A DNA stretch of 64,000 nt from Tubiluchus corallicola (GCA_030141605.1 JAQGDQ010000077.1:310001-374000); one strand, 5' to 3'. Numbered from the stretch's first letter, positions 28,401-59,073 are shown. A program made the numbers and translations. The notes: generated by a model not told the origin, from the letters alone.

Positions 28401-29140
28401 GTACAATCGATTTAATCCTATAATTGCATCTTATGCATATTTTTTTATAAATTGCCCTTTTAGATGTGCTATTACGCATGCATGTTATAATAAAAAAGCA
28501 TGTCTTAGTGCCGAATAAATAACAAAAGGTCCCGAATAAAAAATACCACAAGACAACCCAGCAACAATCTTAACTGAGGAAGTACTAAACAGATTTGCAT
28601 TATTTTGCAGACACTGTGACGCACGCACGCGCTGACGGGACAGGCGGCGCAACCACAGAGATCCTTAACGGGAACTCCTTCAACAGTCCAGCCACCAAGA
28701 CTGTTTCCTCCTCTTCAAACTCCAGCGTTGGTGTTCGACATGAAATGCGCAAGTATGGAGTGAACACGAAGAAAAATTTGACGGCCAAGAAGCGTTTGAT
28801 CAAGATGCTCTTTGTGGTTGTCCTGGAGTTCTTTGTCTGCTGGGCTCCGTTGTATGTCGTCTACACCGTGTTGATCTTCACTCCACCAGAAAGAGCCAGA
28901 GATCTGATCTCAGAAACGTCTTATCAGCTGATCTTGCTGCTAGCCTACACGTCCAGTTGCACCAATCCCATCACTTACTGCTTCATGAACAAGAAGTTCA
29001 GGCAAGCGTTCATCCAAGTGTTCAGTTGCAGTCAGAAGAGCTCCAGTGGACGCTTGACCACATTAGAGAGGCAAACGTGTGCCACTGTTCTTCACCAGGT
29101 CACAGGATCGTCTGGTAAGCCATATCGCACATTCTGCTAA
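8435..29140 (+). CDS. CCKAR: Cholecystokinin/gastrin/sulfakinin-type class A GPCR; join(8435..8783,22097..22298,24628..24815,28611..29140), 422 aa for this 3' end
   Basis: Four GT-AG exons in compatible phases (1,2,1) total 1269 nt. Family motifs: GNTLVILTLVQNKRMRTVTNVFLLNL, SVAVSAFTLVAISLERYCAICYPLRSRSW, AKKRLIKMLFVVVLEFFVCWAP, YTSSCTNPITYCFMNKKFRQAF. The symbol denotes family (CCKAR/CCKBR co-orthologue), not a 1:1 orthologue. Confidence 0.93.
10030..10210 (+). repeat. Dispersed repeat built of degenerate 15-16-nt units (consensus about CCAGTGGTACAGTTCG)
   Basis: The same unit and flank recur at 22842-23255 (+), 24125-24500 (-) and 12330-12430 (-). Confidence 0.75.
12124..12233. repeat. (AAC)n then (AAT)n microsatellite
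   Basis: Directly visible. Confidence 0.95.
13400..13530. repeat. (TC)n / polypyrimidine microsatellite
   Basis: Directly visible. Confidence 0.95.
15985..16082. repeat. (GGACA)n/(GGGCA)n pentanucleotide microsatellite
   Basis: Directly visible. Confidence 0.95.
18988..19277. repeat. Apparently perfect 144-bp tandem duplication
   Basis: TATGTCCGGTATCAGTGAAAG...GATTATTAAAATA starts at 18988 and again at 19132. Confidence 0.92.
22097..22298 (+). CDS. CCKAR: CCK-type receptor coding exon 2 (TM3 with ERY, TM4)
   Basis: Acceptor TTTTTTTCAG| at 22096 and donor AG|GTAAGA at 22298/22299. Confidence 0.93.
22842..23255 (+). repeat. Minisatellite-bearing dispersed repeat (CCAGTGGTACAGTTCG family)
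   Basis: About a dozen degenerate 15-16-nt units, followed by a duplicated TTCTCTAC..TATGTTA..ACCTTAT flank. Confidence 0.8.
24125..24500 (-). repeat. Inverted copy of the same repeat (CGAACTGTACCACTGG units)
   Basis: Reverse-complement units; these explain spurious ORFs 23943-24416 and 24241-24438 and the 5' part of 24410-24883. Confidence 0.8.
24628..24815 (+). CDS. CCKAR: CCK-type receptor coding exon 3 (ECL2 Cys, TM5)
   Basis: Acceptor TTTTACAG| at 24627. Reads YKCREVWP...LFILPLLLMLIAYTLISRTLW. Donor CAG|GTGAGA at 24815/24816. Confidence 0.92.
26003..28203. repeat. Diverged ~350-bp direct repeats (about 26003-26350 and 27852-28203) in CCK-receptor intron 3
   Basis: GAAGACTGGTGA.AAA.CT..AGTTGTTAATTTTCT...CTTGTAAATTATGGTCAC...AATACCTCACTAAG is present in both copies. 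Confidence 0.8.
26638..27461. mobile_element. Possible solo LTR or small TIR element (TG...CA)
   Basis: Begins TGTGACGGCGCA and ends TGTGCCTGTCACA (imperfect inverted termini), with internal AATAAA. No clear TSD. Confidence 0.35.
28611..29140 (+). CDS. CCKAR: CCK-type receptor coding exon 4 (ICL3, TM6, TM7, helix 8)
   Basis: Acceptor TTTTGCAG| at 28610. Contains CWAP and NPITY. Ends at TAA 29138-29140 or splices out at TG|GTAAGC 29114/29115. Confidence 0.92.
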
Positions 29141-36460: not shown

Positions 36461-39400
36461 ATACTTTAGGCAGGGAAATTCAGTTTAGTATGTCAGTGTT
36501 GTATAAAAAACCACTAATACAAAAATGTGTTACTGAATGAACGAAATTTCTTCGGTATTAATCAACAGCTTTGTCAAGTAAGACGCTCAAACATTACTAA
36601 GTTTCATCGTACCTTCTTTTATCGTTCATTAAAAATCACACGTTTTAGCATCAATTTCGCTACCCAATTTAAGTCTTCCATGCTTTTTGTAATCGCTTTC
36701 AAGTTTCGTTGGCAATTTTCACAATTTCTGCGAAGATATTAGAGCGTTTAAAACTTGGAGTCATTAATAGTACAATAGTCACCAGATTGCTATTATTAAC
36801 CACCATCTGCGATTGTGAGTCACAAAAATGAGAATCTTATAACGTTAGAGACGTTGGGTCGAGATCGTGTGTGTGTGTGAGCGTGTCTATTTGCTGTATG
36901 ACTACAGGCCAGTAATCTGTACATAGAAGTAAAATGTCCCTCTCTTTCTTCTGTTTGTTCTTCTCTTTCTTTCTGTCTTCTCTCCTATCTTTCTCTCTCT
37001 CTTTTTCTCTCTTCTTCTTTCTCTCCCTCCTCTCTCTACTTGATGACTACAGACCAATAATATGTACGTACAAGTAAAATCTCTCTCTTTTTCTCTGTCT
37101 TTGTTCGTCTCTCTCTCCTCTCTCTTGCTCTGCGTACAATAAACAGCTGCCGGTTGCAGCTCTACGTATTGATTCACCAGTGATAAAGGAAAGACTCGTA
37201 AGATGCACACCAGCTAGATCACCTAAAAACTGATTGATTATAATATCACGTCTGGCATTTTATATCTGACAAATATACGTGAAAGCCTATTTTGTGATGC
37301 AGCAAAAGTGCAATGCGGGTATAAAACATCGATTTCAGACAACAAATTTCAGAAACTTTATTTCATCAGTACCCTTTAAAAGCGCCGTATGCAATGATGA
37401 TTTTTCCGTGTGATATCCCCAAATGCTCACATCAAAATATCGGTCAAAGTTGTTTGTCATTATAGCTTTATTAATACTTTCAGACGTTAGGTAATTGGTC
37501 GTGGCCTAAAGGCTTCTTAGTCACGGTGAAACATGCATACAATTTTCTTACGCTTTTACATTATGAAATTTAATTAACGGCTCGAAGCATTAAGAATGTC
37601 TCTATTAATAAAGTTATTGCATATTATAAACGACATTTTAATTATTCGGTTTTTCTTTATCAAGAATAAATTTTAAAAGTGGTTCGTTAAAGATGAAAAA
37701 GAACAAAACAGAAGTAAAAGGTAATAAAAACGGAAAGAAAAAGTAAAAGAAAAGTTGTACTCTAAGTTGCTTCAGTAAATCATTTTCATCAACTTGTTAC
37801 GATGTAGGATCTTATATTCCCATTGCTTTTGCTGCTTGTCACGATTTGCACGAGCACGATTCTTGCTCTAAGTGCCGTTTTCCATCAGATTATCTGCACT
37901 TGCTGGGTTCTGCTTTGACTTTTGAGTTGTAAAACGCGTTTTATATTAAGATAATAAAATATCTAAAAGCAACTTGGACGGCTTCAGCTGTTTTTGACGT
38001 CTTCTGAGCTCTCTCGCCGACTTCTGGTGTAATCTCTTTGAATCTGTTTAGTGGGGAAAAGAGGAAAACAAAATTACACGATTTTATGAAGCAAATCTTC
38101 ACAGCGGCGATGAGCTCTTAATGTGTTTACTGAGGAGCATTCTGAAATTTCTAAGCTCAAGTGATAAGATAGGAGTCAAGATTACTGAATTCTTTCACAA
38201 CATGTAGAAAAGGCTCTCACAAAATTTTGTAATAACAAGGTAAATCACCTTAAAATCACCGCAGTTTATGTTTTGGCAGGTAGTGTTTTCATCCGAGAAT
38301 TAGCCTGGCAATTATTTCGTGCTTACATAATTTTGGTATTACATTACTACTGTCAAGACTTAACTCAGTTTTCATGTACTGTACAGTAACCTTAAGTCAA
38401 AAAGTATTGTCTGGCGTAAGTGTAAAGCATTGTCGGCAAAATGTAAAGAAAAACTTACAAGTTTTACAAGTACAGTGTTGCTGCTAACATAAGGTCTGTA
38501 TGTAACACGCACATAAATTTTTAAGCTTTATTTATGAAGAGTGCTTTTCTTATATTCTTAATACATAAAGATGTCACACTTAAAAATTAAATATCATGCA
38601 AAAAACATAGAAATACATCAAGTAAAAAACACAAGGGGAAAACACGTTAATATAAAATCACTGGCCACAGTCACTGAACAGGGTGAGACACAGCAGAAAT
38701 TTGTTAAACCATTTTATAAGTTTTAGTAATTCCGTGTTATTTTTTTCCTATTTTCACATAAAGCAAAGCTACATCAGTAGTTTGAAAAGTCGTGGCTTCC
38801 TCATTTTTAATTGTATGATTTTTTTCATTAATTGTCACAATTCTTGTCATTAAAGAATTGTTTTTCTGAAAGTATGTCAGAAGAGTAAAGCTCTGCAAAA
38901 AGACTGTCAACTTCAATTATTACTGACATACATATTGGGGGCATGCTTATTGGTGGGGTTATGCCACGCAAAGTGTTCAGCAAGTGATTGTCAATATTCG
39001 CATTTGACGACTAAAATTGGTAGTTTGCTAGTTCTGTAAGCTTTCCAGAAAGGAGCTTCTGTATCTTATACGTCACCTTTTCCAAGCGTTTACTCGTTGC
39101 TCATTATGCATGCAGCGGGCTTTCAGAGCGTGCTCTGTCAGACAAGGCATGGAATTTTAACACTGGGCTAAACTGATGAGATGACAACGCGAACAGACGA
39201 GGCCGAAAATGAATCCAAGTATTTTGCGTCTCTGCGCAATTATTTTGTCATTATACATGTAATTTACGTCACTCTTAATCACCAACCTGAGTCGTTAGTA
39301 GCCACCGAGCGCGCGTTCAAAAGCTGGTTTGCCTCTGACCTAATCGATGTTTATTGCGGTACTTCACAACTCACTAAAAGCATCCAGATACATCCGCCCT

Positions 39401-42021
39401 ATTAGCAACTATTTCGCAAGAATAGAGGAGTAGGTCTAACACGCTTCAGTTATTGGATTCTGTTAAATGGGAGGTCTGATATTATTTATCTACATAATCT
39501 ACATTCCACATTCAGTCGTAATCCAAAGCTGCTAATGCTGGCAACGGGTCCTAAGCTAAAACCGTTGTTTACTTTAAACTACTGCCCTGCATTTTCCCAT
39601 TTTAAAAATCATTAAAAATTTATTTCTCTTTATACTGTTGCATTGGAATCAGATTTTTGACATTAAAATAGGTGCATGGATTACAACAATATCAAGCTAA
39701 ATAAAATTAATTTGCAGATTCTTATGTGGTTTAAATAAAACAGTTCAAATTTTCTAAAGAAACAACACTTAAGTACAACACATTACCCACATTAAAAAAC
39801 TGTTCAATGCGTTTTTCTGATACTTTACAATTTAGGTCTGAATTGACGTCAAACATATTGGTCTATCGCTCAATCCCCGTGCAACGTTCAGCAGAAATCG
39901 GGACAACAGCTCACGCAGGATAACAACTGTCCAAGCTAAACTAAACTAAATTAAACAACATGACAGTCACAACTAATGTCTAGTCAGCAGATAAATTTGC
40001 AAAGCAGCAGCTATTTTAGCACGGAATTAACACTTCAAGTAGCAAAAATTACTTTTCAATTTAAACAGAATGTAGAGACGAAACTTCAAAGCACTACAAA
40101 ATACAGAGACACAAATACAATAAAGACACTAAGCCAGTTAGCCCTGCTTTACAACAAATGAGCACCAAAAATATTAAGTCTCTTTTGCCAATAAAGATAC
40201 GAACATCAAGCCTGCGATGTATTTGTCTACATTAATTGATCATGTGCTCGTCTGCAAGATCTATTACGTTTTTGTATTTTTCCGTTTGTCAAGCTACGGA
40301 AATGGAATAAATTTGACTGTTCCATTCCATAGACGACTCTTATATTGAATGCCCAAGTCACATAAGTCCCAATGGTATCTTTTAAGCTTGATTATAACCA
40401 GAAAAATAGCGTAAAATTAGCTAATATTACATTGATGTATAATATAAGTTTTGACCACATTTGCATTCATTTTGACTGTGAAAATCTCATTGAGGTTTAT
40501 AAAAACTAGCCAGGAAAGAAAACATTTTGTTTTGTCCTTATTTAAAGTTAATCAAATAGTTGTTTTTATCTAACTTGCAAAACCATTAACTAAACTAAAC
40601 TGCGCGTTTTCTTGATTGCAAAATGGTTTAATCAGCAACTCATAGACGTAAGCGTTGTGCATTTTTTCCTATAAACGAAACTAGATTACATATTTCCACT
40701 AATTCACTTGCAATTTCAATTGACAATAATAAAATCTAGAACCAAGCCAATATTTATTCTGCTAACTAATGAAAAGTTGAGCATTTTTCATAACAGTGTT
40801 CGTCGGAGGTGTAGCTAAATGTCCCGAACGTACCTGCAGCAGTTGTGTGTGAAATAACTTGCACGCTGATTGAGCAGTCAACGAAAATGATTGGCATTTT
40901 GTTAGACGTCAATTGATCAGTAGGAAAGCTGACAAAGCAATCATACTAATACCCAGATTTTTTTTAACTTTTGTGCTTTATGAAAATAGCAAGCATAAAA
41001 TTTTTATTTTTTTATCAAAAATTAGTGGGTAAATGGTATCACTGTGGCTTAACTATGCCAAATACTGTGGTAACAACTCTTCAGTTTTGGTTGTTAAATT
41101 GTTTAGAGTGACCACTCATTAAAGGAATGTAGCACCCAATTTTAGGCAATAGCTAAAATATGCGATATTGAGTGAGAGAAAATATTTGTTTTGAAGGAAG
41201 AGTTATATTATATTAAAGAATTACCTACATTTTCGCGAAAACGATATTTCGACCGACACAGTATTCTGATATTAGCTTAAATACCATTACCCTTGATCGA
41301 GTTGCTATGGAGATGTCTTCATAGGCAAAAACATTTGTGCAGAAATTATTATACAGCGCTGATTGCTAAAGATAATTTGGTAAAGATAATTTGCGCAATT
41401 TTTTCGTCTGCCATAGTTCACCAGTTCTTGTATGTTTACTAACCAACTATAACTTTTTGAACCGCTTCTATTTTCCAACTTGAACTGTGAACTTAACAAT
41501 ATACTAGTGAGATGTGGGTGTACACGTAAAACTTGAATATTAGTCAATAATCACCCTCTTTGTGCCAAGTTTAATTATGAAATCTGACTCCTGGAAGCAA
41601 TACGCTGATATTTTTATACTTTAACCCTCTTGGTCATACCCCACTCTTAGCGATTCTGCAGGCAAATATGTGCGATAAGTATTTATTTCGCGCAGTAATT
41701 ATTGTTACTAATAACCAAAAGACAGCACCAAATGAGTTTAAATAATAATTGTTACAGTTCTTGATAAATTTTAGAAGGATCCCGTTCTTGCGCAAAATGA
41801 TAAAACATTAACTTAATGATCAATATGTGAAGCAAAATTAAATGTTGCAGTTGCAATATCTTATGCCTATACTGTGCAACAGTATAAATTGCACAAATAC
41901 CATAACTAGACTATTCCACGGTTGAGAAAAGTATGCGATAGACTGACATACACACACACACGCATAGACAAAACGGACCAATAATTCTATAGTTGAATAC
42001 ATGAAAGAACCAGCCTCTAGG

Positions 42022-42302
42022 AATTAACATATTGTTTCTAGCGCAAACGACCGTTTTGACAGCAAATGTAATTTTCAATGTTATAAATCAAGCCAGAACA
42101 AATAATCAGTACCATTATGTTACTACTAACCAAGGCATAGAATAAATTATATCTTTTGGCTGTGTAATGACATAATTTATTCTAAGCCTTGATTAGTAGT
42201 AACATAATTGTACTGATTATTTGTTTTGGGCTTGATTTATAGCATTGAAAATGACATTTGCTGTCGAAACGATCGTCTGCGCTAATAAATAATATGTTAA
42301 TT
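42022..42302. mobile_element. Foldback/palindromic element (MITE-like): ~132-bp inverted arms with a 15-nt spacer
   Basis: 42022-42153 is the imperfect reverse complement of 42169-42302. One arm plus flank recurs at about 53104-53255. Confidence 0.8.
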
Positions 42303-44478
42303 TTGTGGTTGTCCACGTCGTAGAAACAACTATAATAATACCAGTCTATGGTATATTAAAATACTGAGTAATATAGGATGGTCCATCTGTATGTTCAGCA
42401 TAATTAATAAAAGCTAAATGCAATAATTCATTAATTGGAATTTAATTTTATTATCTTGTCTTTTATTGAAATGAACATTTCATCACGAGCAACATTACTG
42501 ATGGCATCACGTATTACAGTACCAAAATGAGCTAAATCTAAACCTCTACGTTTACATTCTAGTGTTTGTTGTGAATTATTAAAATGATAATTCATTATCA
42601 TATTATTAAAATAATAATTCACACACGAAAAACATCGTTTCAAGTAATCATATAGTCACATTGAAAACAGTTTAGGTAAACACTCAAACTGTGATTAAAA
42701 AGCAAATTGGCAAAGCAGGCAAAATGCTTATTTATAATCACTGTACATGACTGACAAATATGTGAACCTATTTTTTTCAATTAAAATAAGTACTTTTTTC
42801 AATTACTGTAAAAAACGAATTCTTACACCGTGTTCTAACTGCAGGAACCAGTAAACAGTGCAGCAATGGCTTTAAATTTCTACACTTATTTCACTAGTCC
42901 AGTGTATGCATCTCTCAAAGTAAAATGAAATGCGGCCATGAAATTTACAAGCATAGAGTGACTTTTAGTTGCACTATTACCTAAAGTGAACAAATGGGAA
43001 AATTCTGACTTATCTCAACAAATACACAAAACTGTATAACGACTGGAATGATTAATCCACTTTTTAATAAATGTGTTCTAATAATTACATGCAAAAAACC
43101 TACATCACAAAGCATAGTCGCAAGGTTAGTGAAATTTCTTACAACCAAAATAGGTGTAACATTTACAAGTGAAAATGAACTAGGAAGCTTGTTGAACTAA
43201 CCAGCATTTTAAAACTTGCAGACAGGAAAAAATTGGACAAGGAAGAAACAGGTAAAAATCATGGTGGCAATTAAAACTTGTTATGCTAAAAGTTATTTTG
43301 AAAATTTGTACATTTATACGCTTGAACTATCAAGCTGTCAACCTAGAAATGACAAAGTAATAGACAAATAAATGTTATGTGATTAAAGTAATGACACAAG
43401 CGCTCTCATACCTAATCTTAGCACACTGAAGTATACTGACTAATTTAAGTGTGAACTGATAATTTTAAGGATGGAACCTGCACCAGAAAACTAAAACTAA
43501 TCAAAAATCTATGCATTCTGTGAAATAATAAAAGACAGCATTATTTGGGACGGTGTTCAACTAAATTATGAGGCAAAACAACCAGTCTATCAGAAACTTG
43601 TTAACACACTCAGCTGTATCAAAATGAATAATAGCAAAAGTGAATGAAAATTGCACTTTACAGTCTAGTGATGTGGACAGGCACTAAGCAAAAAACCAAT
43701 TCCTCTAAAAGTGTGAAGACAAACTGAGACAATTTATGTGAGCAAATAGTACAGATTGTTAATACATATTAAACACAATTAATCAAGTGTACTAATAATA
43801 CATACACAAAACAAATTCACTAAACAGTAATCCCGCCCAACAGTAAGAACTAATAAAATTGACAAGAACCAAGAAACAAATGTAAACGACAAACATTACA
43901 GAAATATTAAACTAAAGCACATTTGTTTTTAAGAGATGACATTTTCTTTTGAAAAAAGAATCATACTTTCAGGCCCTAATTTTTAAAGTTGAGGGCTTCC
44001 CTGCCAAGGATGATTTATCTATTTGTTTTAAACACTCGCTTGAAAATGTGACATGACATAAAAAAGAACTAAAGCTACAATATAGTTGATGATTATGGAA
44101 ATTCAACCTATATAACAGATGCATAACCACTATAGGTACATACAAGAATCTTTATATGTTGGCAGCCAGAAAATCAATAATGCAATGGCAAATGGATATA
44201 ACCATGGCATATTTAATTAATGTATCAAAGTGCAAGCTTTCAAGTAATTTCAAGTAAAAAAACCAAGAGAATTTATACAGATTGCCTAGCAACTTTAAGC
44301 CCATTTTAAGATACTACGATAAATGCATTTTCAAACACTTAATATTCTTAATTTTGAAAAGAAAAAAGTTGGAAAAAAGAAGAAAAGGTAAATAGCTATT
44401 TTATTATTAATTTCCAAACTATGACGTCACAGCATGGATTGTACAATTAAATAGCCGCATGTTTTTCAGCAACCCAAA

Positions 44479-46320
44479 TCATTTCTTGTTTTCAGGTTTT
44501 TCTACAACCGTCCCAGTGAGAATGTAGCCACCCGTACCATCCATATTCATTTCAGGGTGAGTCCGATCTGGTATGATCTGGAATCTACGAACCCAGGCTT
44601 CAGTGAAGTACATATTTACAATACCTCCACGGCGTCTCAGTTTGTGGTACAACTCTGTTAGTGGTTCTCTGTAAAGGCTGAAAACAGCAAAGCAGCGAGA
44701 CGGTTTCAGGAAGTCAACTAATTTCATCGCAATGTTTGTTGGATGATGCTTGCTGGCAATGATTAACCCATCCATTTTCTCTTCCAGCAGTTCTAGTGCT
44801 TTCACTGTTGACTTCAGCTCTTCAAATTCTTCATTCTTAATTCTTGTCTCATCCTCTGCCTTTCTTTTTCGCTTTCTAAAATCGTCCATTTTTCGGCGCT
44901 TGGCTTCTTCTTTCTTGCGCTTTTCCTCCGCTTTTTTACGCTTCATCTCTTCTTCTTTTTTGCGCTTTTCCTCCGCAGCTTTTTTCCTTGCTTTTTCTTT
45001 TTCCTCTTCAGTTTCCTCCTCTTTCTTTTCTTCTTCTTTACTTTCATGTTTCCTCTGTTCGTCTGCTTTCTCTTCTTTTTCGTAATCTCCCTCTTTTTCA
45101 GTTTCTTCTTTGTCCTCTGTTTTATCACGTTTCGCCTCTTCTTTTTCTACCCTTTCTACCTTACCACTTTCACCACGAGTTTCTTCCTCATCTTCTGTCT
45201 TTCTTTTTTTGCACTGTGGTTCGTCGTCTGATTCTTCATTTTCTACTATTAATTGTGCCTCTTCATCTTCCAAGGCTGTTTCAGCTTGAATGGCTGCTAT
45301 AGCATCTGCTTCTGCTTGGCCAAGCAATTCTTCTTTCTTTTCTAAAATATCTTTTCTTTTTCCTAGATCTGTGAATGAGACTGAACAGAATCTGTCAAAA
45401 TAATGAGGGGGAAAGTCAAATGCGCACAGCGCCAGGCGTACATGTGAATCATCATTGTGTAAGCGGACAAGGGCTCCAGTACCACCAAGTCGTTCCAACA
45501 CTGCTCCACACAACAGCCCGTTGCAAGCTTCTATGACCATAAACTTGCTGCCTGCTTTTGCATTAGTCATGGTTAATAACTGTGAAACTGCATCCACACG
45601 CAGATTGACAAATTTGGACGACTGTCGACCAGAGAAGGATTCACAGAGTAATCTAGTAGTTGGCTTAAGGAGAGTAAATTTTGCTACGTATTTTTTCTTC
45701 TTTTTCTTCACATATTTCTCCTTGGAATATTCCGTTTTATCCTTGTAGGTTGCACTATTTGCAACTAGTTTGCTGACAATTTCTTCTCCAGTGGCACCAC
45801 TATCCTTGAGTTCAGTTATATCTTCTGCAGACAGCTTCTGTGCTGAGCTATCATCCTGAAGATTGCGATTATCTGCATCTATACCACTAGTATCGTTAGT
45901 TTTTTCTTTTTCTTCACCATCAGCAATACCTTCACTTTTTTCTTTTGAATCTTCTGCAGTGGTTTTTTCCATAGATTCTTCTTCCTCTTTTTCGTGGTCA
46001 CCTTTTCCTTTGGGAGCACCTTCTTCCTTTTCTGCCTGTTTCTTTTCTTCCTTTCCAGTGCCATTTTCCACATTAATTACTTCTTCTTCTTCATCACTGC
46101 CTTCATCAACAACCAGCTCATTATTTTCAACCTGAAAGGTGGTGCCAAATGGATATCCAATGGCCCCATCCAATGTGAACTGGAATCTCTCCACCGAAAT
46201 CATACGTCCTTTGCGTACTTGATACAGCCGAGGACAGTCATCTTTTTGCACAATAACATAGGAATCCTCCTTTATCAATTTAGGCTCTTCAGAAACTACG
46301 GTTTCCATGGGTTCACTCAT
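44479..46320 (-). CDS. TRMT6: tRNA (adenine(58)-N1)-methyltransferase non-catalytic subunit TRM6/GCD10, 613 aa, intronless
   Basis: Uninterrupted ORF with Gcd10 family motifs: LDGAIGYPFGTTFQV, DNRNLQDDSSAQKLSAEDITELK, EIVSKLVANSATYKDKTEYSKEKYVKKKKKKY, LRVDAVSQLLT, GLLCGAVLERLGG, DGLIIAS, LKPSRCFAVFSLYREPL, WVRRFQIIPDRTHPEMNMDGTGGYILTG. In-frame TAA four codons upstream of the ATG. Confidence 0.96.
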   Translation of the reverse strand: MSEPMETVVSEEPKLIKEDSYVIVQKDDCPRLYQVRKGRMISVERFQFTLDGAIGYPFGTTFQVENNELVVDEGSDEEEEVINVENGTGKEEKKQAEKEEGAPKGKGDHEKEEEESMEKTTAEDSKEKSEGIADGEEKEKTNDTSGIDADNRNLQDDSSAQKLSAEDITELKDSGATGEEIVSKLVANSATYKDKTEYSKEKYVKKKKKKYVAKFTLLKPTTRLLCESFSGRQSSKFVNLRVDAVSQLLTMTNAKAGSKFMVIEACNGLLCGAVLERLGGTGALVRLHNDDSHVRLALCAFDFPPHYFDRFCSVSFTDLGKRKDILEKKEELLGQAEADAIAAIQAETALEDEEAQLIVENEESDDEPQCKKRKTEDEEETRGESGKVERVEKEEAKRDKTEDKEETEKEGDYEKEEKADEQRKHESKEEEKKEEETEEEKEKARKKAAEEKRKKEEEMKRKKAEEKRKKEEAKRRKMDDFRKRKRKAEDETRIKNEEFEELKSTVKALELLEEKMDGLIIASKHHPTNIAMKLVDFLKPSRCFAVFSLYREPLTELYHKLRRRGGIVNMYFTEAWVRRFQIIPDRTHPEMNMDGTGGYILTGTVVEKPENKK

Positions 46321-46439
46321 TTTTCTTAGTTAGCTTACAAAATACTTTTGCTACTAAGCCTAACACAACTATTAGTTGAAAATACAATAGATGCACACAG
46401 TGCAACTAAACAAAATACAATATTCTAAAAAGTTACAGA

Positions 46440-49400
46440 TTACTGAAAAGATGGTAGCTGGCAGATTATCTTCCTGTTAATTTCAGCAAGGTTGATAGAA
46501 CAACTAGCAAGTTTCTCTGGACTCAAATCGGCAAAAATGTCTTCTTCTTTGAGTTCTGCACCTAGAAGATCATAAATGAAATGTAAAAATAGTGAAAATG
46601 ATCAAGTTGTTTACCTTCTGTTATTATTTTACGTTGGTAATTTACTGATTCCACTGTAAGTAGCTCAAAAATGATTCTTTATGACAAAAATTGGAAAACA
46701 TCTTTAACAAAAACATTTCTCTCAACACATTTCAGTAGAAGCTTAGCTCGCGGAGCTTGCTTTGCCAGAGTAGAGTGGTAAGTAGCAACAAGTTTTTGAA
46801 TAATCTCAATCCAAATCCAACTACAGTTATGCTTGCAACGGCATTTCATTACCAGAGTACTTTAAAGTACTGGACATAAATGTTTGAGATGTCGTTGCAA
46901 TTTAAAAACCTAGAAGTATAGTAGGGCAAATTTAGTACAAGTTTTGAGTGAGTTAGTGTGTTCAAGTAGGCATATATGGTACAGTAATAGCATACCGTTA
47001 CCGTTGCTGTTAGAACTCTCACTTCTTCGTCTCACTAGCAATCTGCTAACTCTTTCTTCTTCTTCGCAGTCTTTTGCAGAATCAACTGAATTGCCTAACA
47101 GTCTGACCTCAGTAACAGTTTTGCTACCCTTGGGCCGAACACGTTGCAGTCTTTTGTTTTCAGGCTGTGGATTTTCTGCCTTAGCAGCATGCACTGAACG
47201 TGCCTACATATATGCAATGTATTAACAGAGATTAATGTATTTTAATTATCTATCACAAATACATACATAATTGGGGCAAAGAAGATAGCTGAGTGCTCAC
47301 AGTGTGTGCTTAATGAACAAGTAAAACAACACCAAGCCTCAAGAGCAAAAGGGTGGGCAATTGCCAGGAAAGTCTGAACAATTTCATCTGGCATGTTACA
47401 GCTGGCCATTTATCTCGTTGAAGGAGGATATGTTTGCACCCAAATGCGGCTAAGACATCTGGCAGTGGCTAATTCAGTGTCTCATCGGAAAAGATTATTC
47501 CTTACTAATGAGCACCAACACAATAAGCAGCAAGACAGTGAATGCTGAAATGCAAAACAATTAATTATACACATTATAACAATTCACTTTACCTACCTGC
47601 AAATTAAAAAAGTATTTAATTCTTGATTATAAAACACTTGTTACTGACAGATTGTACCATTGTGATTTAATTTTTTTACATTTACGAAAATATAATGTTT
47701 AATTGTCTATGACCATTGATTATGACTACTCAGTTACTATCTTTATGAGGCTATCAATTTGTGCCATTTTCTAACATTTGTAACTAATGGGCAAAAAATT
47801 TGTGCTTATCTAATTATTTAGCATTTATATTTAGGAGCAAAATAAAAATAGAACAGGCATGAAGGGTTCCTCATTTAAGCAATTATTAATACTACCGGTG
47901 GTGGTGGCAAAATTGCAGGAAAGTTCCATCCAGTGCATAAAATATCAGACAGCAGATTATCAGCATAATTTACAATGATAACTGCTCAGACAAACTACAT
48001 TCTCAAAGGAATTTATTTGAGTGTCTCAAATATGTGAAAACTTCTTTTTGAGTATGCATCACTATCTCGACTTATTTTGTTTAAGTAGTGCCTTGTAATA
48101 AACTTGTACCAATAACTTAATTTGTAAGAATTTAATTTTATTACAGTGAATTAACAATAATGTTTAAAGCACTAATAATTAAATAGTAACAGACATCACT
48201 TTACAATAGGATTTAACACAAAAAATATAAAAACATAATAGTAAATTAAGCTAGTAAATTAGCTAAATAAATTAAGCTAGGTTTCGAACTTTTGATATGA
48301 CATTTTAATGAAATTGTAGCTTCTGAATTTGTTTCCAAATTCAGTAATGAATAACATACAAGTACAACATTAAAGGTCCTATGACACTATTTTTTATGTT
48401 ACTTTCTTTTGAAGCTTAGGCAGAATTGCATATTTCCTAATTTTTAAAACAGTTTTGATGTATGCTTTTATGTGATATAGTAACTTAAATTAAGCGCTGT
48501 TGGTACTCGCAATTTTTACAAAAATTTTAGGCACATTTAGATATTTAGTCCTGATCAGTTTTACAGTATATTTTGACAGGCATAATTGCCATTTATAAAA
48601 AGTGCTGGAGAGCATTGTTGCTACAACCACGAATCAGTTTTTTTTGTACTAGTCTGCAATTCACAAAAAGGTAGGCTTCATGCAAGAAAAAATAACACAA
48701 AAGTTCACCTTTTCCAACTGACGCTGAAATCTGGCTGGAGAATAAAAATCTGGATCTCGTCTAATTCTTTCTGTGCGACGTCGCTTTACTTCAACTGATT
48801 GTCCTAAATAAAATGACAAAAAATCAGCTACAATTTACGTTCAGCATATACTGCAAGCGTGTTCAAACATATTGCAACGTTGCTGAAAAATTTCAAGTAC
48901 AAAGCCTTGAAACCGAAATGATATTGTAACCGCAAACACATTCTTATCGCATATATACTTATACCATATTTTCTTGAAAAATAATAGGTATGCTGCTAAA
49001 ACCTATGACTGACTTTATAGCATTGTGGGCTAAACTCATATAAATAATGTTTTGTTCTACCTCTTGTTATTTTCACTAATTGTTTTAAAAACCTCAGAAA
49101 ACAGTGTTCATTATGGAAAAATAAAGCAGTTTATCATGTGAACTTATAGATTGCACTTAATTAACAGACATCTTGTCATAATGCTTTCTTGTGATCAACT
49201 AAGGTTACAAGCTTTACAGAAGTTCAGGAGTGAATCACATGACGACTATTGCTACTGGACAAGCACAATACTTGCATGCTGACCACAAACGGCAAGGAGG
49301 CCTATATAAAAACTGGAAAGTAAACAAGTAAAATCCCTAACTAATAAATGACTTAGTAAATGAATAAAACAGAATATTAGACGGTTTGTAGTGTACTTAG

Positions 49401-52041
49401 CCAATCGGCTTCATACTCATATACTGATCCCATTTCAGTCCTGCTTTCTCACTGATCTTCCGCGATTTCATGGTGGCAGACAATCACGTATAAGTAGTAA
49501 AATTACGTACCTACTACCTATTAAGTACTTAGAGCCTTACATTTAATACAATTATACAGTAGTACTCTAATAATTTCTCATTATTAGAATTATAATACAT
49601 GTATATAACATGTATATTAAAACTTGACAAGTGCTTTCAGCAACTAAACTAAGAATTAGTAAACTAACACACAGGAAATATTATTTCAGAAATTTAATTA
49701 AATGAATTGAAAACATTTACTTTACGTTACTTTATTTTGTCCCTTTTTGACTTACTCGCCAATTTTCAATTTTTATTTTAGCATGCATCGATACATTACT
49801 TTTACAGGGCGAAAATTAACACCAGTCCACCCAGATGTTCCCGTAAAATTGCCTGAGAACTGACTCAACTCGTTTGTATACCGGTCCCTGTGGCCGGTAA
49901 ACTAAGCTTAGCCCTTCGTTTACTTTGTCTCCATATTAATGAAGCCTTGTACGTACATTTTCCAAGTCAGTGTACGCAGTTAGCGATGTCCTTACTTACA
50001 AAAATTATAATTAATGTTTACAGCGTAGTTTAAAGTAATCTGGTTGTTTAAGTTAAATCTACAGGTAAATCACAAAAAGTATTCACTTGCATGAGTTACT
50101 ATGGGGAAACCACCATGTTAACGATATTCGCGCTGGCATGTTCTAGATTTGAACAAATACGCTTAATCACGTACCAAACGAACTATTTAAAAAAATGAAA
50201 ATATGAAAGAAAAGAGCTGAAATGTAGGTAGATTTGACGAAAAAGTACACGAATTTTATTTGGATATTTTTACACAAAATTTGGAGATTAATTATAACTT
50301 CTTAAAAGTTCTGCCATTGGATACAAGTACTTATCAGCTATGCAGCACATGCACAGTGTGCTCACATCATAAGAGCCGAAAAATAAAAACAGTGTCATTT
50401 GGGAGTTTTTTATCAAAAAAATACTGTTAAATACAGATTAATACTAAAACCTAAATGGGAACACGAAAAGAAAAATACGGTATGTAATGTTGTCAAATCG
50501 CTATACAACATTAATGTTGTATAGGATTCTCTATGCACTATGCAAGAAAATGGCTAAATTTGCACTCTCTTTGTATCAATCATCACCAACCAAAGAACTA
50601 AAAACTCCAGAATCACAAGACAATATTTTAAAATAGAGAGTAGAATACACTGTCAGAGACAAATAGTTTTACTATTCATTATACATGCCTTACGAAAGAG
50701 TAGCTAGATGAGAAGAGAAACTAATTTATATAATATTTAATACATCAGATTACACAAAGTCATTATATGTATGCATTGTAAATAATAACATCAGGGCGAA
50801 TAAGGTCGTCACATATTAGATCACACAAGAATGAAAAAGAAAATTTTCAAAGTGCTCTAACAACTTTTTACAGCTTCCCAGATCCTTATCCATTAAAAAG
50901 TTTCCAAAACAAAAGTACTGTCATCATATATATTCAATTGTGCAAAAAAACTATTGCTATACAGTCTATTTTGAGGTATCTGACTAACAAAATGAACATT
51001 TTGACAAGATGTGTATGAAATTGGTTTGACGGTAAACAGTATTACAATTCTTGCACATAAGAAATTTGTTACGAAATTAAGCTTTTATTTGTTCAAACTG
51101 TTGATTTCTGATTAGTATCCAAGCCTATGACAAAGATAGGAAAGGTAGCAGGCCAACCCTATAATCTTAATTCGTCGATTAATATGGGAACTTTTATAAT
51201 GCAATAAATTTTATCAAAAAATAAAAACACACCTGATTCGTTAGACTCTTGTTGTTTTCCTTTCCGTATGAATTCGTGACCACACTTAGTACACTTCCTA
51301 CAAGCATTGGCTAACTAAAAATGAACCATTATATTTAAATATTGCTACATAAAAAGTCATTGCAAGTATTAAAATTACTTACATGTTCATATTATGAACA
51401 AAAGCTTTACAGAAGTAAAATGTTCAGCCATTGCACACAAATCAACAAATAACATCAAGTTTGCTAACAGAATTTGCCAAATTGAAATATTTAGTGTACA
51501 TGCAAATGCAAAAATTAAAACCTAAGGTACAGATGAGAATCCTGTATATTCTGATAATTGTGGTATAAGCCATAGCACAACTCGGCATGTACTAAAAGGC
51601 ATTATAGGCAGGCAAGCACAAAATTGTAGTTGCATTTATGTTCATCTTTGTGAGTTTAAATTCTTTCACTCGCATTTCGGTAAAAAATCATTTTACTAAC
51701 ATAAAGTTGTACTCTAAAAAGTTACTTTGCTAAATTATGAAAAGTAGATAGAATTATCAAATACGTTCGATACCTACTCCCAAGTTTTACAGAATTGTTA
51801 TCCATTCTGTGCAAAATAATACATTGACAACATAAATTCTTGTAAATTTCCATTGCGAGAATCCCAGCAAATTCAGGTAAAATTTAGAAAAAAAGCGAGA
51901 TAGCATAATACGTACTGAATTTTTAGTGATATAATTTATCTTTTCATCAAATCTACAAAACACGTGCAAAAGAAAGAGAACAGGGGGGAGTAATACTTTT
52001 CATACCTGAGTGTGACAAGATGGACATTCTTTATGGACCAT
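46440..52041 (-). CDS. C16orf87: UPF0547 / C16orf87-like zinc-ribbon protein, ~180 aa; complement(join(46440..46561,46996..47203,48709..48803,51233..51314,52006..52041))
   Basis: Five GT-AG exons in compatible phases (0,1,0,1), 543 nt: MVHKECPSCHTQ|LANACRKCTKCGHEFIRKGKQQESNES G|QSVEVKRRRTERIRRDP...QLEK|ARSVH...SNGN G|AELKEEDIFADLSPEKLASCSINLAEINRKIICQLPSFQ*. Matches recalled C16orf87 motifs K.CP.C..Q...AC..C..CG..F, KRRRTER.RR and DI.A.LS.EK....S..LAEINRKII.Q. Confidence 0.88.
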
Positions 52042-52285
52042 ACTCTAACCCTACATCCTAGAAATCATATTTTTCCTACTAAAGCAACTAGATATATATT
52101 AATTACGAAAAATAAGTTCTATTGTTTTCGAAAATTTCAAAACCGCCGACTCTCACAAACATGTCAGATGCACAAAGGGCCGACTTGATTCTACCGGGTG
52201 CAAAAAGCCATTCTTTGTTCTATTCAAGTAAGTTTATTTACAAGTTTTTCCAGATTTCGACAGCTGGTAGATCAAACCTGAAGAC

Positions 52286-52661
52286 TAAGGGTGAGCATTC
52301 TCTACCAGAAAGCGACTTCAAATCGAACCGAACTTCAGTATTTCGAATTCAAATCGAATTGAGATTGAAAGATTTTCGAACAAGTTTTCCAATCACTAGT
52401 AAAAATTAGTCTTACAAAGATCATGCATATTACTCGATTCTGTTCTGCAATAAAACCTCTAATAATTTATTTAAAACTGTGCACAGAAATCACCGCTAAA
52501 TTATGTTAATTGCATGATGATTCAATCGTTTCAATGATAAAGAACGTATGTGATTGAAGAGCTGAATTTTTCGAATCTTAGTTTTAGGTTCGAATTTAAT
52601 TTGAATTTAAAAACTCGTTCGAATCGAATTCGAACATTCGAACGTTCGATGCTCACCCATA
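52286..52661. mobile_element. Non-autonomous hAT-type DNA transposon (MITE) with perfect 8-bp TSD
   Basis: Termini TAAGGGTGAGCAT...ATGCTCACCCATA, flanked by CTGAAGAC at 52278-52285 and 52662-52669, with TTCGAA-rich subterminal repeats. Confidence 0.88.
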
Positions 52662-53103
52662 CTGAAGACACACGATGAGTCAATCACAAAAAGTAATTAA
52701 ATTTTAACAAGTTTATTACATGCTTTAAACGCATAATTTAACACTAATTTGAATGTTGTGAAAATTGCACACTTGTTATTAATATTCTTTTGAAATACTA
52801 GGGGTGAACATCGAACTTTCGATCCTAAAATTATAGATTTTATCATTACAATAAGTCTCAGAAAATGATGCACATTTTACACAAAATGTGCACTGTTCCT
52901 CTAACACTTTATACAGCGGTTCTTTGTTTTCCCAGATATAGACTTTGCTTGGTCTTAAAGTAATTGTTTGCTGACTGTTGTGATGTTTCCTTGAATCTGA
53001 TATATAAGGTACTATTTTTATGTTTTCTTTACATGAAATCTCTTTCTAAGTTATTTCTAGTTGTATTCTGACAATTTAATTTCAATCATTGATTGTGCAA
53101 TAA

Positions 53104-56589: not shown

Positions 56590-59073
56590 ATGGCCTTAAA
56601 TAAAAGTAACATGAACGATTCAAAGTCTTGTGTACATGCTTACCATGATGACGTAGTGGCGGAGTGCAACTACCACAGCCATTTAGAACCAACTGAAAAG
56701 TATATTGAAGCCACAATTCTGGTGATCTTAATCATAGTTGCTGCTTCTGGGAACCTTCTCTTATGGTGTTCAGTGTTGAGGACTCGGAAACTGAGGAAGC
56801 CAGACAATTATCTAGTATTATGTTTGAGTCTTGCAGACTTTCTGGTGGCGGTAGTTAATCTTCCGTTCACATTGGACGCAGTCTTGCGTGATCATTGGCT
56901 TTACGGGGACACGTTATGTGTTTTGCAGGGATTTACGAACATGCTGACTTTTGTGGCTAGTGTCATGTCACTTGCTGCCATTAGTGTGAATCGTTACATA
57001 ACCATCTGTCACTGGCATCGTTACCGTGGCGTGTACAGTCCTCGAAATACTATATTCATTTGCTTAGGTAAGAATGTGGGGCGTCAATTATAATATCAGC
57101 CATAGGTTTAATATGTAAGTGTTTGATAGCTAGAAAGATTTAATTATTTTGATACTGTTGGTAACAAGAGGCAATGATGACGACATCCACGATAACGACA
57201 ACCATACGCCAACCGTGACCAGTGCCACTGCTACCATAGCCACAACACAACCGCTGCAAAGATGGTGACGACAATGGTCACAATGATAGCAACAACACCA
57301 ATAACCACAGCAAAAACAACAACATAATAATGATGATAACGATGATAATGATGAAGATGAGACGATGATGATGATGATGATGACGATGATGACGATGATA
57401 ATGATGATGATGATAATAATAATAATAACTTAGTGACCATGAAAGCAGTGATGAGAAAGGCATCACGAAAAAATAAAAATCAACAACATCAATAATAACA
57501 GCAGCAGCAGCATCAACATCAGCAGGAGCAGTTCTGGTTGTGGTAGCAAACATGAAGACAACAACAAGAACAAGAACGACGATGACAAAAACAACATTGC
57601 ACAGACACTTTGTGATCATTTTTGTCGTCATTATTATTATCGTCATCGTCTTCCTTCCCCGTCTCAGTATCCTCTTTCACATTATAATCGTCGTTATTGT
57701 ATTATCATTATTGTCGTCGTCGTCGTCATCGTCATCATTATTAATCGTCGTTTTTACAATTATCAACTTTATCTTCATAAACTTCTTGCCTGCAATTTTC
57801 TTATGTTTGAAAACTGTAACTGTAGTACTGTATTGTCTTATGCTTTGTTTTAGGTGTATGGTTGTTTTCTGCCATTCTTGCAATGCCACCACTTCTTGGA
57901 TGGGGTATTTACGATTTCTTACCCAACGCGTCGTTCTGCTTTTCAGATTGGTCAAAGAGCATTTCGTTCACTTTTTTCATGGTGATTATCTGTTTTGGGG
58001 GACCGCTGTCTGTAATGGCCTTTTGTTACACCCGAATAATAAAAGAATGCCGCATGAGTAGTAAGAAAACGATGTCACCTAAGAAAAGCATCAAGAAACC
58101 CAAACCATTAACATCACTTTCATCAATAGTTGTGACTGGTTTGCACAAAAACATTGAGGAGGAACCTGCAAAAGATTGTAACACACCAGAGGTTAGAAGA
58201 TCTGTCAATCCAGTTAAATCATTCTTTACCTTGCCTGTGGTTACAGAGGATTCCGAAGGTGACTATGTAGATGAAAGTGAATACAATGCAAGTGTAGGTC
58301 ATTTGTCTGAATGCTCCCTTTCGTTTTCTTCGTCTATTTTGGACACAGTTGCACAGTCGTCAAATACAGCTGAGGAAAATCCAGCTAAAGATGAAAGCAC
58401 GAAAAGAAGATTTAGTGAGGGCGACATTCTAGAAGAAACCGAGATCTCAAAGAAAAACCAGCTGATGTTGCCACCACAAAGACTTTTCAGTCAAGGATTT
58501 CAAAAAAGCAGAGACAAGCTATACAAGTTGGGGAAAGCGTTGAATATGCACCCTTCTGAAGTAGTAAAGAGACTCCGTCAAAAGAAACGGAGAGAGCGCC
58601 GGAAGCAAAGGGAGATAAGATTAGCGAAGCTTTTTCTTATTGTCGTGTTTGCTTTTGTCATTTCCTGGTTCCCTTACTGCATTGTCATGTTTTGGGCAGT
58701 ATTTGGGAAAAATCCTGTCCCACGGGCAGCCGACATGCTAGCTCTGTTGCTGGGCTATGCCAATAGCTGTTACAACCCGATTATTTATGGAGCCCTGAAT
58801 AGAAACTTTCGTGATGGTTACAAAAAATTACTTTGCTGCCGCAACAACAGAGCGAAAACGATGCAAAAACTTAAAAAACGTCGTCGACCTGAAGGATTCA
58901 CTGGCTCAGATTCGCGTCCTATTTCTTCAATGAACACACAAACTGGAAGACCCGTTTCAAGTTTCATATCTGAAGAATCATTATCAATTAATTTGAAATA
59001 TTTCATTGGGGCAGATGTGTCTTTACCAGACGGTTGTAGTGGGATTGATTCTTCTTCATCTTTTTCACAATAA
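56590..59073 (+). CDS. Class A GPCR, melatonin-receptor-like orphan, 565 aa; join(56590..57067,57854..59073)
   Basis: GNLL (TM1), LSLADFLVAVVNLP (TM2), WLYGDTLC, SVMSLAAISVNRYITICH (NRY), PPLLGWG, ISWFPY (TM6), GYANSCYNPIIYGALNRNFRDGY (TM7/H8). Phase-1 intron TAG|GTAAGA ... TTTTAG|G. Confidence 0.9.
57170..57780. repeat. Mixed trinucleotide repeats (GAT/GAC/AAT/AAC in the 5' part; CAT/GTC/ATT in the 3' part) filling the GPCR intron
   Basis: Directly visible; source of the poly-Ser/His/Asp spurious ORFs. Confidence 0.9.

What the first reader, a model, noticed from the sequence alone, without database searches (positions are those of the whole stretch)
44479..52057. Candidate bicistronic / operon-like unit: spliced C16orf87 followed 119 nt later by intronless TRMT6
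Seen in the sequence: the C16orf87-like last exon (acceptor at 46561) stops at TAA 46442-46440, and the TRMT6 ATG starts at 46320 on the same strand. The 119-nt spacer is T-rich and has no AATAAA/ATTAAA, no ATG and no CpG promoter-like patch. There is no ATG anywhere from the 46561 acceptor to the TRMT6 start. The first minus-strand AATAAA I see downstream is after TRMT6 (~44400-44405). The two ORFs are out of frame and an in-frame TAA precedes the TRMT6 ATG, so a fusion protein is excluded. Inference: both proteins come from one transcription unit. Possible routes are (a) a true bicistronic mRNA with reinitiation, as in ASDURF-ASNSD1 or SNURF-SNRPN; (b) SL trans-splicing at a spacer acceptor (TTTTTAG, TTTTGTTTAG or GTGTTAG), as in nematode and tunicate operons; or (c) alternative splicing of a non-coding 5' exon straight to the last exon or spacer. 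Out-of-frame ATGs in C16orf87 exons 1, 2 and 4 argue against plain leaky scanning. This would couple a small nuclear zinc-ribbon protein to the m1A58 writer for initiator tRNA. I know of no description of this pairing but cannot search for one.
Basis: partly seen in the sequence, partly recalled or inferred. Interest (0 to 1): 0.85.

Follow-up and report, generated by a model that had tools for sequence, protein, structure and literature searches.

The report
C16orf87 and TRMT6 share one mRNA
In this invertebrate the intron-free gene for a tRNA-methylating subunit (TRMT6) starts 119 bases after the stop codon of a spliced chromatin-repressor gene (C16orf87), and the two likely share one messenger RNA on which ribosomes would reach the second gene by skipping the first start codon, a new gene pair of a kind already known from flies.

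Summary
Five-exon C16orf87 (178 aa) stops 119 nt before intronless TRMT6 (613 aa), with no AUG or canonical poly(A) signal in between. Support comes from a close relative: a spliced C16orf87 fragment (exon 3/4 and 4/5 junctions joined) and a complete TRMT6 each sit on one Logan contig of 3,685 nt, almost certainly the same contig. I could not view that contig, and a contig is not a single molecule. Only 3 AUGs lie between the two starts against 10.2 expected (P about 0.003, post hoc). A 5-codon uORF ending in AUG-stop closes 9 nt before the C16orf87 start. Best reading: a dicistronic mRNA translated by scanning or short-uORF reinitiation (0.55). Main rival: read-through plus an internal TRMT6 promoter (0.28). 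In three bivalves the two genes are unlinked. This is a new member of a known kind (159 fly dicistronic pairs); the scan noted similar pairs, not this one, in other genomes. Boldest reading: TRMT6, which stabilises initiator tRNA, senses initiator-tRNA supply GCN4-style.

The parts
52051..52068 (-). Short upstream frame (5 codons, MISRM) whose last codons form an AUG-stop element at 52056-52051; it ends 9 nt before the C16orf87 AUG. Whether it lies inside the mRNA is untested.
   Evidence: two ATGs in a 30-nt window occur in 9%, a start-stop in 4%, of 2133 windows of the minus strand
52006..52041 (-). C16orf87 coding exon 1; start codon with A at -3 and G at +4; out-of-frame AUG at 52027 (A at -3, 12 codons)
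51233..51314 (-). C16orf87 exon 2 (zinc ribbon); out-of-frame AUG at 51307 (weak context, 30 codons)
48709..48803 (-). C16orf87 exon 3
46996..47203 (-). C16orf87 exon 4, two tandem donors (47002 and 46996); last AUG before TRMT6 at 47190 (weak context, 31 codons)
   Evidence: P0006 fits the first donor, P0011 the second
46440..46561 (-). C16orf87 exon 5 coding part, stop TAA 46442-46440; acceptor-like TTTTCAG at 46449-46443
46321..46439 (-). 119-nt spacer: no ATG, no AATAAA/ATTAAA; further acceptor-like sites at 46425 and 46406
   Evidence: the allele in run X1 (5 differences) is also free of ATG and canonical poly(A) hexamers
44479..46320 (-). Intronless TRMT6/Gcd10 ORF, 613 aa, with long Glu/Lys-rich insertions
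   Evidence: 15 of 18 listed differences in run X2 at third codon positions, 2 amino-acid changes
44400..44405 (-). First AATAAA after exon 5, followed by a T-rich stretch: the likely shared poly(A) signal

Best explanation
A spliced five-exon C16orf87 gene and an intronless TRMT6 ORF lie 119 nt apart on one strand with no poly(A) signal between them, and they are likely carried on one dicistronic mRNA from which TRMT6 would be translated by 40S subunits that bypass the C16orf87 start and scan an AUG-poor path. Shown: the layout, both intact ORFs, the splice junctions (as proteins of relatives), AUG scarcity, and the absence of linkage in three bivalves. Inferred: that P0011 and P0001 come from one contig; that this contig reflects one RNA; that the RNA ends after the AATAAA at 44405. 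Predicted: bypass comes from leaky scanning plus reinitiation after short frames. Ribosomes that start at the upstream MISRM/AUG-stop element would end 9 nt before the C16orf87 AUG, too close to reload initiator tRNA, and those starting at the +14 AUG stop at +53, past the +43 AUG. One or two weak AUGs (+43, +226) then lie before the strong TRMT6 AUG at +656. Likely origin (untested): an intron-free TRMT6 copy landed in, or was brought next to, the C16orf87 3' UTR in this lineage. A shorter TRMT6-only RNA may coexist.
For: (1) P0011 (112 aa, 98 of 112 identical to the window's C16orf87) begins at the last codons of exon 3 and runs through the exon 3/4 and 4/5 junctions; P0001 (608 aa, 560 of 606 identical to TRMT6). 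Each is a single-member Logan cluster on one contig, both 3,685 nt long. Spliced, the two ORFs plus a 119-nt spacer take 2,297 nt; the unspliced span in the window is 4,239 nt and would not fit. (2) In a second relative the full 177-aa C16orf87 lies on a 2,196-nt contig, 1,543 nt more than ORF plus spacer. (3) 3 AUGs between the two starts vs a null mean of 10.2, P 0.0026; five other coding stretches of the window (TRMT6 and four GPCR stretches) show no such deficit; no internal Met in the window protein, P0006 or P0011, against 2 of 37 other homologs, and 25 of those 37 have a Met in the exon-5 region. AUG scarcity upstream of ORF2 marks algal bicistronic loci (PMC11892635). (4) Stop-to-start distance lies within the -34 to 319 nt range of fly loci that are only polycistronic (PMC4528330). 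(5) In KSHV a short uORF at a strong-context ORF35 start lets ribosomes reach ORF36 424 nt downstream (PMC3561293). (6) TRMT6 is under purifying selection, so it has to be translated from some RNA.
Against: The shared contig is inferred from equal length only; I could not read it, and short-read contigs can join overlapping RNAs. The C16orf87 start is in strong context (A-3, G+4), unlike algal ORF1 starts, and the +14 AUG also has A at -3. The upstream frame may lie outside the mRNA (no start site known) and two ATGs in 30 nt are common (9%). No partial TRMT6 of 337 aa or more from the 2,196-nt contig appeared in two searches, although read-through predicts one unless edge-cut products are not held. 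P0011 was called from inside exon 3, not from the true start, so exons 1-3 are not shown on that contig. In run X1 one contig crosses the exon 5 acceptor unspliced and reaches 135 nt into intron 4; X1 also covers intergenic DNA, so this may be genomic. In flies 114 of 159 dicistronic loci also have a monocistronic form, usually from a downstream promoter for the 3' gene. The AUG test was made after seeing the sequence and its Met rate comes from distant homologs.
Confidence: 0.55

Rival explanations
1. Two 5' ends, one 3' end: C16orf87 mRNA reads through and carries TRMT6 as a mostly untranslated 3' UTR, while TRMT6 protein comes from a shorter RNA started at an internal promoter in intron 4, exon 5 or the spacer.
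For: Common in flies: the monocistronic form of the 3' gene usually comes from a downstream promoter. Strong C16orf87 start context. From 46696 down only one 3-codon uORF (46573) precedes TRMT6. An X1 contig bridges intron 4, exon 5, spacer and TRMT6 unspliced. A start inside exon 5 or the spacer would leave no branch in the relative's contig.
Against: Does not explain AUG scarcity in exons 1-4, where most of the deficit lies (Met absent throughout; 3 vs 5.9 out-of-frame). X1 covers intergenic DNA too and shows no evidence of being RNA. No CpG or GC patch at 46000-47000. The relative's contig follows the spliced path, not intron 4.
Confidence: 0.28
2. Spliced-leader operon: a polycistronic pre-mRNA is resolved by trans-splicing a leader onto an acceptor at 46443, 46425, 46406 or 46562.
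For: Three acceptor-like sites score as well as the gene's real acceptors (pyrimidine share 0.75-0.83 vs 0.50-0.75). The spacing resembles nematode operons (about 100 bp), and Ciona operons often have no intercistronic region (PMC7986045). A short leader could be clipped from contigs (inference).
Against: No AATAAA for the upstream gene. A spliced RNA continuing into TRMT6 is inferred in a relative. AUG scarcity would be unnecessary. Priapulids, the likely group by other notes of this scan (untested here), were not among the SL-using groups in the passages read, and three searches listed no paper on it by title. The rest of the window is gene-sparse, with no other tight pair.
Confidence: 0.07
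3. Shared promoter with alternative cis-splicing: a short non-coding 5' exon (upstream of exon 1 or inside intron 4, for example ending at the donor-like site 46614) is spliced to exon 5 or a spacer acceptor, giving a monocistronic TRMT6 mRNA.
For: ATG-free exon 5 and spacer; acceptor-like sites; a donor-like AAG|GTAAAC 53 nt before the exon 5 acceptor would remove the 46573 uORF.
Against: No such joint was seen in any data I could reach; skipping from coding exons 1-4 keeps the strong C16orf87 AUG on the RNA.
Confidence: 0.06
4. Two ordinary monocistronic genes whose ends overlap (C16orf87 ending in the spacer at a non-canonical signal, TRMT6 starting in exon 5), joined only by the assembler.
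For: Short-read contigs join overlapping RNAs (the tool states that a contig across two genes shows no single transcript).
Against: Of 15 hexamer variants scanned only AAGAAA at 46327 lies between 46560 and 46321, too close to the TRMT6 ATG to end an RNA before it. AUG scarcity unexplained.
Confidence: 0.04

Closest known systems
Drosophila dicistronic loci (FlyBase gene_with_dicistronic_mRNA; 159 pairs; PMC4528330, passages and supplement searches)
   Same: Two unrelated intact ORFs on one strand, short stop-to-start distance (119 nt, within -34 to 319), small upstream protein, likely one processed mRNA.
   Different: This pair is not listed: the terms CG9596 (my recalled fly TRMT6 name), Trmt6, Trm6 and UPF0547 had 0 hits in 12 of 13 supplementary files, with Mocs2 and primo-1 as positive controls. 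No cDNA or start-site data here.
Green-algal bicistronic loci translated by leaky scanning (PMC11892635, passages)
   Same: Shorter ORF1, short spacer, few AUGs upstream of ORF2, internal AUGs mostly weak.
   Different: Algal ORF1 starts are weak; here the ORF1 start has A-3 and G+4. ORF1 is 537 nt vs medians of 357 and 291 nt.
KSHV ORF35-ORF36 mRNA (PMC3561293, abstract and passages)
   Same: Strong-context ORF1 of similar size (151 vs 178 aa); short uORFs next to the ORF1 start; ORF2 several hundred nt downstream.
   Different: There uORF2 overlaps the ORF35 start; here the uORF stops 9 nt before it, is not shown to be transcribed, and the gene is cellular and spliced.
Human bicistronic mRNAs ASDURF-ASNSD1, MIURF-MIEF1, PYURF-PIGY, STREMI-SLC35A4 (PMC13303939, passages); RPP14-HsHTD2
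   Same: Two conserved proteins on one spliced transcript.
   Different: The upstream product here is a 178-aa, five-exon, animal-wide gene (MIER-HDAC corepressor subunit in human, PMC13133221) that is unlinked to TRMT6 in bivalves, so the pairing is lineage-specific.
SL-resolved operons of nematodes and tunicates (PMC7986045, passages)
   Same: About 100-nt spacing, T-rich spacer, acceptor-like sites.
   Different: No upstream poly(A) hexamer, no leader seen, an RNA contig that likely spans both genes, and a gene-sparse neighbourhood.

Membership tests
C16orf87 / UPF0547 (PF10571) | N-terminal zinc ribbon at Pfam cut-off and C-terminal helix motif | tested here: met
   P0006 (93% identical to the window model) 29.6 bits vs cut-off 29; profile of 40 homologs hits window exons 2, 3 and 5; named homologs among hits
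TRMT6 / Gcd10 (PF04189) | Full-length Gcd10p domain plus C-terminal region, intact frame | tested here: met
   214 bits; 5ccb_B E 2e-88; alignment
Dicistronic mRNA (FlyBase sense) | Two non-overlapping conserved ORFs with short spacing | tested here: met
Dicistronic mRNA (FlyBase sense) | One processed mRNA spans both ORFs | tested here: inconclusive
   Equal 3,685-nt contig length for spliced P0011 and P0001 in a relative; contig not read, not a single molecule
Dicistronic mRNA (FlyBase sense) | Both proteins are translated from that same mRNA | not testable with these tools
   Needs Ribo-seq or reporters; AUG scarcity is indirect
Leaky-scanning bicistron (algal type) | Few AUGs upstream of ORF2 | tested here: met
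   3 vs 10.2 expected, P 0.0026
Leaky-scanning bicistron (algal type) | Weak ORF1 start context | tested here: not met
   A at -3, G at +4
uORF-gated reinitiation (KSHV ORF35-36 type) | Short uORF overlapping the ORF1 start | tested here: not met
   uORF stops 9 nt before the ORF1 AUG; close but not overlapping
uORF-gated reinitiation (KSHV ORF35-36 type) | uORF lies in the mRNA and is needed for ORF2 output | not testable with these tools
   No start-site data; needs a reporter
SL trans-spliced operon | Leader added at an unpaired acceptor of the downstream gene | not testable with these tools
   Only contigs were served; acceptor-like sites exist
SL trans-spliced operon | Poly(A) signal of the upstream gene just before the acceptor (nematode type; feature recalled) | tested here: not met
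   No AATAAA/ATTAAA from 46561 to 46321
Retrogene | Intronless copy of a gene with introns elsewhere | tested here: inconclusive
   Intronless here; isoform labels X1-X3 in Lingula and Amphimedon suggest spliced genes but exon structures were not seen
Retrogene | Parental intron-bearing copy, or poly(A) tail and target-site duplication | not testable with these tools
   No whole genome is held; no telling repeat pair among those shown

The most novel reading that the evidence does not exclude
The mRNA is a GCN4/ATF4-like sensor that controls the enzyme feeding the sensor itself. TRMT6 (yeast Gcd10) stabilises initiator tRNA, and low initiator ternary complex raises delayed reinitiation (PMC4615748). 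After the upstream MISRM/AUG-stop element, scarce initiator tRNA would let more 40S subunits pass the C16orf87 start and the weak AUGs and start at TRMT6, raising m1A58 methylation and restoring initiator tRNA while lowering an HDAC-corepressor subunit: a translational feedback loop built from two housekeeping genes.
Probability: 0.08. Interest if true: 0.8.

Novelty: new member of a known kind. Interest (0 to 1): 0.45.

Why it matters
Two-protein mRNAs are catalogued in flies, green algae and a few human genes, but hardly in other invertebrate groups. This locus adds a lineage-specific pair in which a tRNA-modifying subunit that is essential in budding yeast appears to have become the second cistron behind a five-exon gene, with the upstream gene purged of AUGs. 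That would show an ordinary gene being reshaped to let ribosomes through. Annotation pipelines may drop or fuse such pairs. If the upstream frame gates TRMT6 by initiator-tRNA supply, it would be a direct feedback loop on translation initiation that a simple reporter can test.

Tried and rejected
No whole genome is held, so paralogs, a parental TRMT6 and other tight pairs in this genome could not be searched. No RNA holder was listed for the stretch; this is no evidence on expression.

Run X1 (kind unknown, contigs only): no joint at any C16orf87 intron and no cover at 46697-46807 or 44152-44306. Contig depth figures were 166-198 over 44307-46696 against about 2-16 over non-repeat bins of exons 1-4, introns and the intergenic stretch 37200-43300. 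If X1 were RNA this would favour the internal-promoter rival. But X1 covers intergenic DNA as it covers introns, no splice joint was seen in either call, target-enriched DNA would look alike, and the tool states that contig depth cannot rank genes or show starts. I used it only to keep that rival high. Run X2 (RNA a guess) gave two TRMT6 3' pieces about 94% alike and nothing on C16orf87 at 90% likeness.

Metagenome scans: P0001 found no relative among 589 candidate stretches. An alignment of 13 TRMT6 proteins gave 15 loci of unknown eukaryotes, 0 of 15 with a C16orf87 hit under E 2; they are not shown to be animals, so this says little. The 40-protein C16orf87 alignment was too variable to scan with. 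Rfam: 0 matches in the window. The sigma-70 promoter scan does not apply to an animal and was ignored. Pfam on 106 of 137 long frames (the rest overlapped known ORFs or microsatellites) found only further GPCR exons. Atlas searches did not resolve the phylum.

Rejected: a fusion protein (frame, in-frame TAA, intron phases); a TRMT6 pseudogene (intact, purifying pattern); a pan-animal pairing (unlinked in bivalves); plain reinitiation after the full 178-codon ORF as the main route (long ORFs need special factors, PMC5972666 passages).


Full report
Layout. The region holds, on the minus strand, five coding exons (52041-52006, 51314-51233, 48803-48709, 47203-47002, 46561-46440) with GT-AG borders that join to a 178-aa ORF, a 119-nt spacer, and an unbroken 613-aa ORF at 46320-44479. 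The second is TRMT6/Gcd10 (Pfam 214 bits; human 5ccb_B E 2e-88). The first is C16orf87/UPF0547: a search with exon 4 alone returned one protein among 57 candidates, P0006, which matches the joined model at 165 of 177 positions across all four junctions and passes the Pfam cut-off. The spacer has no ATG, CpG, AATAAA or ATTAAA; the first AATAAA downstream is at 44405. A fusion protein is excluded by frame, by a TAA 12 nt before the TRMT6 ATG and by the intron phases. The missing poly(A) hexamer is common by chance (74% of intron windows); the missing ATG is less so (4-13%). The other coding sequence found in the window belongs to two GPCR genes, 15 kb and 4.5 kb away, so this is not a compact genome region. 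The animal was not identified here. Earlier notes of this scan on the same genome call it a likely priapulid; I did not test that.

Evidence for one RNA. The only close TRMT6 relative found is P0001 (608 aa, 560 of 606 identical; 1 of 5 hits, 1 of 10), a single-member Logan cluster on one contig of 3,685 nt. A phmmer search with P0006 gave 45 proteins. The best, P0011 (112 aa, 98 identical to the window model), starts at the last three codons of exon 3, crosses the exon 3/4 and 4/5 junctions, and uses a second donor 6 nt after the first. It too is a single-member Logan cluster on one contig of 3,685 nt. The spliced ORFs and spacer need 2,297 nt, while the unspliced span in the window is 4,239 nt, so the contig is most simply RNA. 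P0006 lies on a 2,196-nt contig, 1,543 nt more than ORF plus spacer, which fits read-through into TRMT6 but could be 5' sequence. Against it, no partial TRMT6 from such a contig appeared. Contigs can join overlapping RNAs, so single-molecule proof is lacking.

Runs. Two runs were served, both as contigs. X1 has one contig from 45102 to 46696 that crosses TRMT6, the spacer, exon 5 and 135 nt of intron 4 unspliced. X1 also covers the intergenic stretch 37200-43300, so it holds genomic DNA and is not shown to be RNA. Its depth figures and gaps are given under Tried and rejected; they would favour an internal TRMT6 start if X1 were RNA. Five of that contig's eight differences fall in the spacer and none creates an ATG or a canonical poly(A) hexamer. 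X2 gave two TRMT6 pieces; of the 18 differences listed, 15 are at third positions and 2 change a residue.

How TRMT6 would be reached. Between the two start codons there are 3 AUGs. A null made of codon shuffles, the Met rate of 38 other homologs (1.43%) and dinucleotide shuffles of the spacer gives 10.2, with P 0.0026 for 3 or fewer. The parts are each modest: out-of-frame 3 vs 5.9 (P 0.08), no internal Met (P 0.08), spacer (P 0.05-0.13); five other coding stretches of the window (TRMT6 and four GPCR stretches) match expectation. Of 37 homologs with a C-terminal part, 2 lack an internal Met and 25 have one in the exon-5 region (the alignment held 40 of 46 proteins, six short or fused ones left out, and one more row was dropped for lacking the region). 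The test is post hoc. AUG scarcity upstream of ORF2 marks algal bicistronic loci, where ORF1 also has a weak start (PMC11892635, passages). Here the ORF1 start is strong (A-3, G+4), so plain leaky scanning is not enough. Two ATGs at -27 and -15 form a 5-codon frame ending in AUG-stop 9 nt before the C16orf87 start, and the +14 AUG opens a 12-codon frame ending past the +43 AUG. Reinitiation needs distance after a short frame (PMC13338717 and PMC3561293, passages), so such ribosomes would skip the C16orf87 start and meet only weak AUGs before TRMT6. KSHV ORF36 is made this way behind a strong-context 151-aa ORF. Whether the upstream frame is in the mRNA is unknown, and two ATGs in 30 nt occur in 9% of windows. 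Reinitiation after the whole 178-codon ORF is unlikely without special factors (PMC5972666, passages).

Age and origin. In 3 of 3 species named on both sides the genes lie on different sequences: Potamilus streckersoni (713,707 vs 2,948,601 nt), Sinanodonta woodiana (166.7 vs 156.4 Mb) and Mytilus trossulus (81.8 vs 94.3 Mb). Three more Mytilus pairs agree, two of them matched by accession series because names were cut. All are bivalves, so the range within the animal's own group is open. Isoform labels on TRMT6 in Lingula and Amphimedon suggest spliced genes; that human TRMT6 has many introns is recalled. Retroposition or intron loss next to C16orf87 is therefore an inference; no genome was available to look for a parent.

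Comparison with what is known. FlyBase lists 159 dicistronic pairs, 45 without any monocistronic form, with -34 to 319 nt between stop and start; monocistronic forms of the 3' gene usually come from a downstream promoter (PMC4528330, passages). Human examples are listed in PMC13303939 (passages). C16orf87 is a MIER-HDAC corepressor subunit in human (PMC13133221, passages). TRM6/GCD10 was found through raised GCN4 expression and acts through initiator tRNA (PMC4615748, passages). Not found in print: 0 papers hold both C16orf87 and TRMT6; 11 hold TRMT6 and bicistronic, and the 10 listed concern mitochondria, viruses or reviews by title and abstract start; the fly list had no hit for the recalled TRMT6 names in 12 of 13 supplementary files (file 1 could not be searched). 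The library lacks most subscription papers, and bioRxiv supplements were closed. SL trans-splicing in priapulids was not found in three search listings or in passages of PMC7986045. This scan has noted several other dicistronic pairs in other genomes but not this pair.

Verdict. The feature is real. Co-transcription is likely (about 0.85); translation of TRMT6 from the long RNA by scanning with short-frame reinitiation is the best single mechanism (0.55), with an internal promoter as the main rival (0.28); the two can coexist. It is a new member of a known kind, interest 0.45. The feedback reading, TRMT6 output gated by initiator-tRNA supply, is not excluded (0.08) and would deserve 0.8.

Noticed in passing
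window 8435-29140 (+): Multi-exon rhodopsin-family GPCR (7tm_1 hits at 8435-8797, 22057-22299, 24407-24880, 28745-29137); it looks like a cholecystokinin/sulfakinin-type receptor by recalled motifs, not tested.
   Followed up: partly
window 56590-59073 (+): Second rhodopsin-family GPCR in at least two exons with a long third intracellular loop.
   Followed up: no
window 44479-46320 (-): TRMT6 is 613 aa against 423-497 aa in the named complete animal homologs, owing to two Glu/Lys-rich insertions and a short tandem repeat at 44910-44985, shared with P0001.
   Followed up: partly
window 46996-47002 (-): Tandem splice donors 6 nt apart at the end of C16orf87 exon 4; relatives use one or the other, adding two residues.
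   Followed up: yes
window 46443-46449 (-): The last codons of C16orf87 read TTTTCAG directly before the stop, the best acceptor-like site in the region; P0006 ends one residue earlier at this place.
   Followed up: partly
window 46321-46439 (-): Five of eight differences on a 1,595-nt X1 contig fall in the 119-nt spacer; two of them remove the AG at 46352-46351.
   Followed up: partly
window 52126-52827 and 39685-41175: High-copy repeats by contig pile-up in X1; the first, rich in TTCGAA palindromes, begins within about 100-250 nt upstream of the C16orf87 start codon.
   Followed up: no
window 18988-19281, 22868-23024, 24318-24501: A near-perfect 144-nt tandem duplication, and two 16-nt minisatellite arrays close to GPCR exons.
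   Followed up: no
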